From contig OX597815.1 of assembly GCA_951406725.2 (NCBI GenBank), forward strand, positions 103,726,001 to 103,790,000: DNA of 64,000 bases, read 5' to 3'. The position numbers and the translations under genes were made by a program. Source of the stretch: Octopus vulgaris. Lineage: Eukaryota. Each line of letters begins with the position of its first letter. The stretch's first letter is position 1. The notes beneath the pieces are model-generated. The model had not been told where the DNA came from and made no database searches. It saw nothing but the letters and a program-made list of their open reading frames with translations. Positions 13,751 through 19,260 of the stretch are shown here, one piece after another.

Positions 13751-14183
13751 AAAGGAGGGAAAATATGAATGAGTGGAAGTAGTGAGGTGTTGTATGACTT
13801 AAAGTTGGCACACTATGGGTTATAGCTGTGATTGGGGCTGATTTGTCGTGGATTCTTAGGAATGTAATATTTGCGTGTGTATTTGTGTTATTCTAAGGCA
13901 GAGGGGTATATATCGTTTGTCGTAAACCCGTTCAGAAGGGGCTTATATTTTGTAATAAAGAGTTTCTTTACTTATTCGTTGGCTCGAGGTTGTATCGTCC
14001 CTGAATTGGTAGAGGGGAAAATCCTGAAGTTTGGTGTTTTGTTGTTGGCGCAAGTAACTATGTGTTGGCTGAATGTTATTTTTCTGTTTTGGGGAATTTT
14101 TATCTGGGATCTGTTCAGGGCCATTCTTTTACGTAAACTATTTTTCGTTTGGCCTATGTACTGCTCTTGACACCCAGAGCAGG

Positions 14184-14248
<65 letters not shown>

Positions 14249-14456: not shown

Positions 14457-14766
14457 ATAATTATCATTTAAACTATACAAAGTTTTGAAATGATGGACTG
14501 AAAATAATTCGCGTCTGACTTAACGTACAGCTCTACATTATACAACACAGAGTTTATAAAAGAAAATCATTAAACGGTCATATATATATATACAGTTCTA
14601 TATTTAAGAAATGAGGAATTATTTACATTATTTACGTTTGATGTATATTTGTTCTCATCTTGATTGTTGCTAACACAACGCTTCGGCTAATATACTCTTC
14701 TGCCTTCATCAGGTGCCTTAGGGAAATTTCGAACCTGGGTTCTCATTCCGAAGGTATTTTTCGATG

Positions 14767-14836
<70 letters not shown>

Positions 14837-14850
14837 CAGTAGTAGTAGTG

Positions 14851-14897
<47 letters not shown>

Positions 14898-14905
14898 CAG
14901 GTCAC

Positions 14906-14978
14906 GGGCACATGGCGTATTGGTAAAGAGCGCGGGCTACTAACACCAAGATTCTGAGTTCGATTCCATGCAGTGACC
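14906..14978 (+). promoter_or_regulatory. tRNA-derived head with Pol III A and B boxes (resembles tRNA-Arg)
   Basis: A box TGGCGTATTGG, B box GAGTTCGATTCC, with tRNA-like spacing; acceptor and anticodon stems are imperfect, so it is not a tRNA gene. Confidence 0.75.
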
Positions 14979-15064
14979 ATAATTATAATAATAGTAATAA
15001 TACTGATAATAATAAACACAACAGCATCAACAATAACAACAACAATAATAATAACAACAACAAC

Positions 15065-15121
<57 letters not shown>

Positions 15122-15169
15122 GTCAAAAATACCTTAGGAATGAGAGTCGAGGTTCGAAATTTTCCCAAG

Positions 15170-15213
15170 ACACCTGATGAAGGCTAGGGAGTATGTCAGC
15201 CGAAACGTTGTGT
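15170..15213 (+). ncRNA. Minimal type I hammerhead ribozyme
   Basis: acac-CTGATGA-a-ggct...agcc-GAAA-c-GTT-gtgt. The mirror copy at 14673-14716 (minus) has GAAA mutated to GAAG. Confidence 0.8.
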
Positions 15214-15256
15214 TAACAACAAACAAGATGAGGACAAATATCCGTCAAATATAAAT

Positions 15257-15291
<35 letters not shown>

Positions 15292-15310
15292 ATATCGAAC
15301 ATATATATAA

Positions 15311-16182
15311 CAAATTAAAAAGGGTGGCTTATTAGCAATTATAACCTAAAGGCAAAATTAATAAAGTTCACAAAAGTTACACGTGGTGCTGACTACCACC
15401 GCTTTTCCTAAAAATATAACTTAAATAATTCAAAGCCACAAAAGCACTGAACTTATTGACTGTTAAAGAGAGGTGGGTCCCCAGCGCACAAAGCCGGATC
15501 GGGATTTCGTATTTTGATGTAGACCTTCTCAATCCTCATCATCAGGTCTTAACGCCTAGGGTCAAACTCAACTACCTCCATCAGTCTTTTAAGAAAACTG
15601 TTGAAAGCATGTGCTGATTTTCAAAATGGTAAAAGTTTAAACAACAAATTAAAAATGGTGGCTTATTAGCCATTAGGATTAAGATGATCTACATAAAAAT
15701 CCAAAATCGCGATACCGCTGGGGACATGCCTCCATTTGTCAGTCATTAGTTTGGTGCTTTCGTAGCTTTGAGTTACTTTAACTCTTATTATTAGTAAAAT
15801 ATGTTCTAATCAGCACCATCTGTCACTTTTGTGGCCTCTGTCAATTTTGCCTTTAGATTCTAATTGCTAATAAGCCACCCTTTTAAATTTGTTTTTTAAA
15901 CTTTTACCGTTTTGAAAATCAGCACGTTTTCAACGGTTTTTCTTATCAGACTGAGAGAGGTAGTTGAGTCTAATTCTAGGTGTTAAGAGCCGCTGATGAG
16001 GATTAAGGTGGTTTCCATCAAAATCCGAAATCGCGATCCGGCTATGTACGCTCGGAACTTACCTCCCTTTATCAGTCATTAAGTTCAATGCTTCTGTGAC
16101 TTTGAGATATTTAAACTCTTATTCTTAATACAAAAGTGGTACTGGGTAGTGGCATCTGTCACTTTTGTGGCCTTTATTAATT
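15311..16182. mobile_element. Tandem and inverted ~325-335-bp HHR-bearing repeat (non-LTR retrozyme-like)
   Basis: Minus-orientation units at 15311-15673 (period ~334) then plus-orientation units at 15674-16182 (period ~324); one HHR position per unit. Confidence 0.85.
15988..16043 (+). ncRNA. Type I hammerhead ribozyme, fully canonical
   Basis: agccg-CTGATGA-ggatt...aatcc-GAAA-tcgcg-ATC-cggct; stem III palindrome ATCGCGAT; decayed sisters at 15492-15547 (minus) and ~15676-15716 (plus). Confidence 0.9.
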
Positions 16183-17239: not shown

Positions 17240-19255
17240 AAAGTTATTTTGTTCAACACGGGGAGAAATATAGGAAAAGTAGAAGTTGAAAATGCACTGA
17301 GAATAGTTAAAATATTTTTTATTATTATATTTAAAGCTTTAACCGGTTTCCTTATTTACACTGATTTTCAAAAAGTTCAAATAGAAAGACGTGGCTTATG
17401 TCGCAGGTATCTTGCTACTGACTAGTGTATCAAGTTTGCCTTATTTTTATTGGTAGTTCGTGGCTCAAATTAGTATATGTTTTGAATAGGATTTGATTGA
17501 TAGAGGACAGTCACATGACTAGTCTTAGAAATAATTGTAGGTTCCCCACTAAGTCTGTGTGTTAGTGTCAAGTGACAATGTTTGGCGCCGTAAGTTAAGG
17601 GTGACATGGTTGACTGAACATGTCCAAACAATCACTGCTCTGAATGTTTTGTCAAATGATTGTAGAAAAAGAAGACATGATTAAGTTTATAACCTTTTGT
17701 ACGTTTCCCACTACGTGTGTTAATGTCACGTGGCGGTATGTTTTGCGTCTAAAAAGAAGGCCGACACGATTGGGTAAACATGTTTAGTTATAATCAAGGC
17801 ACTCCAAATTTAATCTCTCTGGTGGGAGAGTGGAAGGAGCTGTTTAATGTAGTCAAGTGGCTAAAATTTAGATTGTCAGCTGTGAAGCTTCATCATGATA
17901 TGTGGCAGAATGAACTTTGAGTGAGAATAGTTATTTGTGTGTGTACTCTGTTAAACTTTGATAAGCCTTGGTTTGTACTTTTTTATAAAAGTATTTTCTT
18001 TGTTTATCTTTGCTTCATCTGTGGTATTCGCTGAACATAGGTAGACTGGGAAGACCTGGAGTTTGGGGAACTTAGTTTTTTACACAGAAGTCTACGTGTC
18101 CACTCAGTGGAATCTCTCTAGTACTGGGGTCTCGTAGATGTTATCGGTGAACGGTCCGTCGATTTCTTAGAGTAAGCTTTATTACATCCTTGATATTTCA
18201 TAGTGTATACTAAATTCCTTGAAGAACATGTAAAGTGATTTTCTACGGCAAAGATCTGTCCTAATTTGAATTTTTATGTTGCATCTTCAATAAGGTTGAT
18301 GCAGGTCTGCAATTCGGGTGGTCACACTTTTTGTCTGTTGGTGTATGAATTGTGAAAGGTAACATAGCACATGTGAGGAATTTTTGAAGGATTTTGAATG
18401 CCTTTTACCTTTGATTATTTTGTGTTTCGAATGCTTGTTTCATTCTTGGGTCTTGTTTTAGTAATGCGATGTTCTGGTGGATAATATAGTAAACCTCTGT
18501 GCTTCTTGGGTTGTGTGTTGTAATAAAGAGTATTGGATGTATCTGGAGTGCTTTTCGTTTTCTGTAGTTCGTTGGTATTTATTGCTCTGGCACGTTCTAT
18601 TCCATTGTCTATTAGCATTAATGGATATTGTCTTTTAAGTAGTATTTGTTTTAGCTCTTGGTGTCTTTTATTGCGAGTTTCAGGGTCTCAGACAATTGTG
18701 CAAAGTTTTCTTGCTAGATTCAAGGGGATATTTTTCTTTCGTGTGTTTGGGATGGCAGAGGAGAACTGTAAGTACTGATTAGTATTTGCTGTTTTTTTGT
18801 AGTGAATATCTGTTTCAATGTTTTTATCTCTTTTGATGATTAGTATATCCAGGAACGGTAGTTGAGTTTTACTGTACTCCATGGCAAAGTTAATGGTATT
18901 ATTTATGTTGTTGATTAGATTTTTGAAATCTATAAGTTGTTCATAATGTGCGTGCATAGGATTAGGCAATCATCTAAGTAACGTTTCCAGTTTTCTAGTA
19001 GATATTTCTGGATGTTCAAGCCATATATTAATTTAGATTGCTCATATATCTGGACCTTTATGTATGCCATGACTAGATTAGCGTAAGTCGGAGCAACTTT
19101 TGCTACCATCGTAGTCCCAGATATTTGTTGGTAAATATTGCCATCGAAGTAAAAAAAAAAGTTGTTTTCGAGAATACACTTTAACCCTTCAGTGAAGAAA
19201 GTCTTTTCAATTCTGTCTGGAATTTCATGAGAGAATATCTCAAGCCCGAAATTTA

Positions 19256-19260
<5 letters not shown>
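17236..19260 (-). mobile_element. 5'-truncated Penelope-like retroelement (RT + GIY-YIG), decayed
   Basis: Minus strand: YQQISGTTMVAKVAPTYANLVMAY, WKRYLDDC, QLPFLDILI..ETDIHYK..QYLQFSS..KKNIPLNLARKLCTIV, LRNRRTVHR..IPLSGH; decayed U3-A8 HHR at 17336-17376. Confidence 0.9.

What the first reader, a model, noticed from the sequence alone, without database searches (positions are those of the whole stretch)
15311..16182. ~330-bp tandem hammerhead repeat (non-LTR retrozyme-like) in head-to-head arrangement
Seen: about 1.1 units on the minus strand joined to about 1.5 units on the plus strand, with no ORF and one HHR position per unit. The copy at 15988-16043 is fully canonical with 5-bp stems I and II and an AUC site. 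Known: metazoan non-LTR retrozymes are short tandem HHR repeats that yield monomeric circular RNAs. Inference: this locus is a reverse-transcribed, greater-than-unit-length copy of a ~330-nt circular RNA.
Basis: partly seen in the sequence, partly recalled or inferred. Interest (0 to 1): 0.75.

Follow-up and report, generated by a model that had tools for sequence, protein, structure and literature searches.

The report
Old Penelope-mobilised hammerhead retrozyme copy
This is an old, mostly decayed copy of a protein-free jumping repeat whose 337-base unit carries a predicted self-cutting RNA, a known kind of element; its back-to-back shape recurs in many sister copies and was likely made by a Penelope-type enzyme copying one small, probably circular, RNA from both strands of a DNA cut.

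Summary
Observation confirmed: 1.10 units on the minus strand (15676-15309) and 1.55 units on the plus strand (15672-16182) of a 334-337-bp unit, with no ORF. Only the hammerhead at 15988-16043 is intact. The unit belongs to a dispersed, old family (60 distinct loci, median 90% to the majority sequence; no young copies, no long arrays). Stem I covaries, and the majority unit folds strongly as a circle (z -6.3). The head-to-head shape is not special to this locus: 27 of 60 loci have it. In 19 of those, one arm ends near unit base 45 and the other near 304-337, mostly against TA repeats. That is the known Penelope-like (PLE) signature of an inverted copy plus a tail. No copy is joined to a PLE ORF. 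Arms and repeats within a locus share variants, and copying runs through the cleavage site, so the template was one circle or an uncleaved multimer; these two are not separated here. This locus cannot release a monomer today. It is a new but apparently extinct member of the non-LTR retrozymes. The scan already noted younger families with this anatomy elsewhere in this genome.

The parts
15249..15308 (.). Left flank: (TA)n-rich target tract
   Evidence: 32 of 36 tail ends in the family abut TA/CA repeats
15309..15676 (-). Inverted arm: unit 12-337 + 1-45, 1.10 units, 89% to family majority
15309..15353 (-). 45-nt PLE-type tail (unit 1-45), ending at the family's commonest 3' end
   Evidence: 25 of 88 arms end exactly at unit base 45, 46 of 88 at 36-58
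15492..15547 (-). Decayed hammerhead (C3 changed, stem I broken, palindrome broken)
15672..15676 (.). Head-to-head junction of the two 5'-truncated arms, 5-nt overlap
15672..15848 (+). Partial unit (150-337) with a truncated, mutated hammerhead at its start
15849..16182 (+). Full unit (1-335), 88% to family majority, ending at the tail-less 3' end
15950..16080 (+). Predicted long stem that carries the ribozyme at its tip (approximate limits)
   Evidence: circular fold of majority unit and of this unit; not recovered by RNAalifold on decayed copies
15988..16043 (+). Intact type I hammerhead; predicted cleavage after C16038
16183..16290 (.). Right flank: TA/TG microsatellite tract

Best explanation
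The locus is an old, decayed insertion of a dispersed, ORF-less 337-bp hammerhead repeat family (a non-LTR retrozyme) that was likely pasted into a TA tract by a Penelope-like RT-endonuclease acting in trans on one RNA template, probably a circle. Shown: the anatomy, the family, the two preferred 3' ends about 45 nt apart, divergent-only inverted arms, TA targets, read-through across the cleavage site, and shared variants within loci. Inferred from PLE biochemistry (PMC11167929): the enzyme nicked both strands, and each nick primed reverse transcription at one of two internal sites (unit ~337 and ~45). The two 5'-truncated cDNAs were then joined head to head, which leaves the tail on one arm. 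Inferred from retrozyme biology (PMC7229834): multimeric transcripts self-cleaved after AUC, probably as dimers through the palindromic stem III, and host ligase closed them into 337-nt circles that the RT ran round more than once (about 0.6 for a circle against an uncleaved multimer). Today the copy is probably inert.
For: Family: 551/996/628 first-look candidates, 40 scored per search (not copy numbers); 60 distinct loci analysed. 27 of 60 have divergent inverted arms and 0 convergent; in 19 of 27 the ends pair as tail/no-tail. 17 of 21 distinct loci, whose query did not carry the tail in that order, still end at unit 36-53. TA/CA flank at 32 of 36 tail ends. Stem I pair C-G 36 / U-A 13 of 60 rows, Fisher p 9e-7; covariation score above all 500 shuffles. 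Majority unit as circle -93.7 vs -68.6 +/- 4.0 kcal/mol, 60 shuffles. Within-locus passes share 21% of their non-CpG variants against 8.6% between loci, 0 of 10,000 random draws as high; tandem and inverted pairs alike. 10 of 21 tail arms from the 3'-end query read past the cleavage site; 5 of 88 5' ends lie within 7 nt of it, 3.9 expected. Young intact RT+GIY-YIG ORFs exist in the genome. Same architecture described for PLEs in PMC8557442 and PMC3846280.
Against: No cleavage or circular RNA was shown. No autonomous partner with homologous ends was found in 30 GIY-YIG loci or 20 longer PLE loci. Rfam has no match. Covariation cells count copies, not events, and may be one or two subfamily changes; pair-level measures do not beat the shuffles (287 and 288 of 500). 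RNAalifold on 29 decayed copies does not recover the long stem or stems I and III. 8 of 27 inverted loci do not fit the two-end rule, and the tail-less end is spread over 304-337. No array above 2.3 units was seen. Sampling favours long, well-kept copies. Shared variants could also come from copying a homogeneous source array or from later gene conversion.
Confidence: 0.8

Rival explanations
1. Same element and same PLE enzyme, but the template was a linear, uncleaved read-through transcript of a tandem master array; no circle was involved and the ribozyme was dispensable for mobilisation.
For: [quoted passage not shown] Every genomic feature measured here is compatible with it.
Against: It needs a master of three or more units. 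None was seen: longest arms 709 and 786 nt, and all 9 exact-core and 31 looser-core matches in the genome are at separate places. The HHR covaries and the unit is strongly self-paired as a circle. A master could have decayed or be unassembled.
Confidence: 0.3
2. The unit is just the pseudo-LTR of a coding PLE, and these loci are 5'-truncated insertions of that PLE.
For: The ends, tail, inversion and TA target are those of PLEs. Retrozymes are reported to be homologous to pLTRs in Xenopus (10.64898/2026.07.22.740005). A 13-nt and a 9-nt word are shared with the 3' UTR of a PLE family of similar age.
Against: Upstream of a unit there is more unit, through every position, with no fixed break. 27 PLE proteins against 61 loci hit 4 distinct places, none continuous with a unit's 5' side; 0 hits in 39 more loci. 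No overall homology to the neighbouring PLE's 3' UTR (score 50, shuffles 61.6 +/- 9.1). Derivation from a pLTR remains likely; only 'nothing but a pLTR' is disfavoured.
Confidence: 0.07
3. A DNA-level satellite or fold-back (MITE-like) repeat whose hammerhead look is incidental; the inversion arose by local rearrangement.
For: No Rfam hit; only 9 of 65 HHR positions pass the strict descriptor.
Against: Fixed 3' ends with variable 5' ends, divergent-only inversions with different junctions at each locus, compensatory stem changes, and descriptor hits far above shuffles.
Confidence: 0.03

Closest known systems
Metazoan non-LTR retrozymes (Cervera and de la Pena 2020, PMC7229834; mussel 350-390 bp, axolotl 330/350 bp)
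   Same: ORF-less tandem unit of 150-450 bp, GC under 50%, one type I HHR per unit, strongly self-paired predicted circle, co-existing PLEs. Stem III of 2 bp plus a tetraloop as described for HHR_Amex2 and invertebrate HHRs.
   Different: Old and probably inactive; at most 2.3 units per arm; no locus with two intact HHRs; no TSD discernible; RNA not shown. Inverted arms are not mentioned in that paper's main text (0 occurrences of 'inverted').
EN+ Penelope-like elements: partial tandem, inverted 5'-truncated copy and tail (PMC8557442, PMC3846280); PAc biochemistry (PMC11167929)
   Same: Head-to-head inverted arm, tail at one end only, two preferred RT start sites, AT-rich/TA targets, variable 5' truncation.
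   Different: No ORF; tail about 45 nt against the 30-40 nt quoted; HHR has full stems rather than the minimal PLE form (PMC4209133).
Vertebrate retrozymes as non-autonomous PLE derivatives (Li, Clavereau and Pollet 2026, 10.64898/2026.07.22.740005)
   Same: Same proposed origin and mobilisation route.
   Different: By that paper's criterion (two consecutive complete HHRs) this locus is not an active retrozyme; no homologous pLTR was found here; the host is an invertebrate.

Membership tests
Non-LTR retrozyme | Short (150-450 bp), low-GC, ORF-less unit in tandem copies | tested here: met
   337 bp, 39% GC, longest frame 62 aa; 37 of 60 loci have an arm above one unit (sample biased to long copies), longest 786 nt
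Non-LTR retrozyme | Type I hammerhead at one position per unit | tested here: met
   Descriptor, covariation and model; no Rfam match
Non-LTR retrozyme | Dispersed copies with retrotransposition signature | tested here: met
   60 distinct loci, fixed 3' and variable 5' ends
Non-LTR retrozyme | Two consecutive complete HHRs (criterion for an active copy in the 2026 preprint) | tested here: not met
   One intact HHR at this locus; 9 of 65 positions intact, each in a different locus; no clustered cores genome-wide. This bears on activity, not on family type.
Non-LTR retrozyme | Strongly self-paired predicted circle | tested here: met
   z -6.3 for the majority unit, -3.2 for the window's plus unit
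Non-LTR retrozyme | Self-cleavage of the RNA | not testable with these tools
   needs a cleavage assay
Non-LTR retrozyme | Monomeric linear and circular RNA in vivo | tested here: inconclusive
   Only assembled contigs of runs guessed to be RNA were available; they cannot show circles
Non-LTR retrozyme | Target-site duplication longer than 4 bp, when present | tested here: inconclusive
   flanks are microsatellites; no TSD readable
Autonomous EN+ PLE | ORF with RT and GIY-YIG endonuclease | tested here: not met
PLE-mobilised element | Inverted 5'-truncated copy in head-to-head orientation | tested here: met
   27 of 60 divergent, 0 convergent
PLE-mobilised element | Tail at one end only; two RT start sites | tested here: met
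   19 of 27 inverted loci pair a tail end with a tail-less end; none has two tails
PLE-mobilised element | Microsatellite / AT-rich target | tested here: met
   32 of 36 tail ends; the genome is microsatellite-rich and no background rate was computed
PLE-mobilised element | Autonomous partner with homologous pLTR | tested here: inconclusive
   none in 50 PLE loci; two short shared words with one family

The most novel reading that the evidence does not exclude
Each insertion of this family is a fossil of a Penelope-type enzyme priming from both strands of one cut and running round a single 337-nt ribozyme circle from two fixed start points 45 nt apart. That would be genomic evidence for the so-far proposed circle-plus-PLE route, in a lineage (probably a cephalopod) with no retrozyme described in the papers found. 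A bolder extension (probability about 0.1): the driver was the equally old Neptune-like PLE family seen at window 17300-19259, which shares two short words and the last five tail bases with the unit and shows no canonical hammerhead in its 3' UTR.
Probability: 0.5. Interest if true: 0.5.

Novelty: new member of a known kind. Interest (0 to 1): 0.3.

Why it matters
Animal retrozymes are proposed to be moved by PLE enzymes through circular RNA, but this is argued mostly from co-occurrence and shared ribozymes. This family's end pattern (two start sites, one tail, head-to-head arms copied from one source) matches the in vitro behaviour of a PLE protein and so supports the PLE half of the model. 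It is a weak system for the circle half because it is old and its ribozymes are mostly dead; the younger families in the same genome would serve better.

Tried and rejected
Rfam: nothing at gathering score; only microsatellite-driven matches at E<=10. First pattern search used a gap range that excluded the usual 17-nt spacer, so its single hit says nothing; repeated properly. Sequencing runs: no RNA holder listed. Eight runs guessed to be RNA were laid as contigs at 80% likeness: scattered, mostly 80-95% alike pieces, nearly all running on into unlike flanks; the 330-338-nt 'goes back' joints match genomic tandem junctions; no evidence either way. Junction microhomology across loci: 4 of 27 with 2 nt or more against 16% in controls; the method is blunted by decay, so no claim is made. 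The extra shared flanks of L004/7/12/13/15/18/19/30 looked like a longer element but are a secondary amplification of one insertion with no PLE homology; they were counted once. The partner search (unit against 30 GIY-YIG loci and 20 longer PLE stretches, covariance model over the same 50) found no homologous pLTR. RNAalifold did not confirm the long stem. ARAGORN found no tRNA nearby. Earlier notes by sequence and by nearby place: nothing.

Full report
Observation. The region is two divergent arms of one 334-337-bp unit: minus 15676->15309 (unit 12-337 then 1-45) and plus 15672->16182 (unit 150-337 then 1-335), overlapping by 5 nt and flanked by TA-rich microsatellites. The two full units are 79.8% identical. 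There is no ORF (longest frame 62 aa). A type I hammerhead descriptor finds 15988-16043 with 5-bp stems I and II, both core boxes and AUC; its strict form hits once here and never in 100 shuffled windows. Stem III is 2 bp with a palindromic loop, the usual metazoan form that is thought to need a dimer (PMC4209133, passages). The other two positions are broken. Rfam has no hammerhead match.

Family. The genome has 2.8 Gb in 227 contigs; an octopus is my inference from size, contig count and microsatellite load (recalled, not from a call). Three DNA searches gave 551, 996 and 628 first-look candidates, of which 40 each were scored. Of 91 loci fetched, 67 were distinct. Six members of one secondarily amplified composite and one segmental duplicate were dropped, leaving 60. 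Arms are 85-94% identical to the majority sequence (median 90%, 73 arms). The best non-self full-unit matches are 87% and 86%, so no young copies turned up. 9 of 65 HHR positions pass the strict descriptor, each in a different locus. Genome-wide, 9 places hold the exact core and 31 a looser core, none clustered. Sister subfamilies at 77-88% show the same anatomy.

The ribozyme was under selection in the active phase. One stem I pair is C-G in 36 and U-A in 13 of 60 rows (Fisher p 9e-7); the covariation score exceeds all 500 shuffles and all slid controls. These counts reflect copies, not independent events, and the pair-level measures do not beat the shuffles. In a second alignment a stem II pair is G-C in 18 and A-U in 6 of 29. 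The majority unit folds as a circle at z -6.3 with the HHR on a long stem; RNAalifold on decayed copies does not recover that stem.

Insertion anatomy. 27 of 60 loci have divergent inverted arms and none convergent. 46 of 88 arms end at unit 36-58 (25 exactly at 45) and 29 at 304-337 or 1-11. In 19 of the 27 inverted loci one arm has each kind of end, none has two tails, and 8 do not fit. Two of the three queries contained the tail; among the 21 distinct loci from the one that did not carry it in that order, 17 still end at 36-53. 32 of 36 tail ends abut TA/CA repeats (no background rate computed). The 5' ends are spread, with no excess at the cleavage site (5 of 88, 3.9 expected), and 10 of 21 tail arms picked by their 3' end read past it. 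Passes within a locus share 21% of non-CpG variants against 8.6% between loci, equally for tandem and inverted pairs. So both arms came from one source sequence that was continuous across the cleavage site.

Is it only a PLE terminal repeat? The genome holds many PLEs: 150 scored GIY-YIG matches, some in 781-aa frames with RVT_1 just under its cut-off. 27 of their proteins hit 4 distinct places among 61 unit loci, none continuous with a unit's 5' side, and the full ORF hits none of 39 further loci. The unit has no homology to 30 GIY-YIG loci or 20 longer PLE stretches. A decayed PLE at window 17300-19259 belongs to a family of similar age (92% to its majority). It shares a 13-nt word (4 of 1000 shuffles reach 13) and a nearby 9-nt word with the unit, but has no overall homology, and the words lie at a different distance from its ends. 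This was noticed after the fact and is a lead only.

Mechanism. PLE insertions are described as partial tandems with an inverted 5'-truncated copy and a 30-40-bp tail at one end, with microsatellite bias (PMC8557442, passages), most often head to head (PMC3846280, passages). The anole PLE protein cuts and extends both strands at AT-rich DNA and starts RT at two internal sites that bound the tail; uncleaved RNA is its main substrate (PMC11167929, parts 1-2 of 4). That accounts for this locus without anything new. Retrozymes are shown to yield monomeric circles and are proposed to be moved by PLEs (PMC7229834: passages, part 2 of 6, Discussion; bioRxiv 10.64898/2026.07.22.740005, parts 1-3 of 5). 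A circle explains arms of 1.1-2.3 units without a long master, and none was found, so I put it at about 0.6 against an uncleaved multimer. My data cannot separate the two.

Novelty. A new member of a known kind, and an apparently extinct one. Two searches (hammerhead + octopus + Penelope; hammerhead ribozyme + cephalopod) listed no paper describing a cephalopod retrozyme. I saw listings only for papers not named above, and no supplements; those of the preprint are closed and those of PMC7229834 may list such repeats. Earlier notes of this scan describe younger 360- and 485-bp families in this genome with the same two-ended pattern. I had seen the fixed tail end before and took the idea of testing paired ends and shared variants from those notes; I tested it on this family only. 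Interest 0.3.

Noticed in passing
window 14580-15266: A second PLE-type element next door: two divergent ~140-nt arms with a minimal hammerhead (15169-15215, plus; stem III of one pair) around microsatellites and a tRNA-looking 80-nt piece that ARAGORN does not call. Abundant family (3182 first-look candidates, best hits 92-94%); 7 of 11 other loci have an inverted arm and 6 of 11 the middle piece; no PLE ORF attached.
   Followed up: partly
window 17300-19259, minus strand: Decayed 5'-truncated PLE (RT, Cys-rich linker, GIY-YIG, about 700-nt 3' UTR); family of 1107 candidates, 92% to its majority; no canonical hammerhead seen in the 3' UTR; shares two short words with the retrozyme unit.
   Followed up: partly
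window 13930-14184, minus strand: GIY-YIG fragment of another 5'-truncated PLE.
   Followed up: no
L004, L007, L012, L013, L015, L018, L019, L030: One ~400-nt retrozyme copy amplified again with more than 1 kb of its flanks as part of a larger unidentified repeat (93-97% identical over the unit).
   Followed up: partly
L164:153-206, L185:1500, L198:1500: A different repeat family with a shorter hammerhead that has the same stem III palindrome.
   Followed up: no
L174:930-6172, L175: Young PLE with a 360-380-aa upstream frame before the 781-aa RT+GIY-YIG frame and 456-bp inverted repeats at 99%; the covariance model found no hammerhead of this family in it.
   Followed up: no
L006 and L011: The same insertion with shared flanks 0.6 Mb apart on one contig in opposite orientation, probably a segmental duplication.
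   Followed up: no
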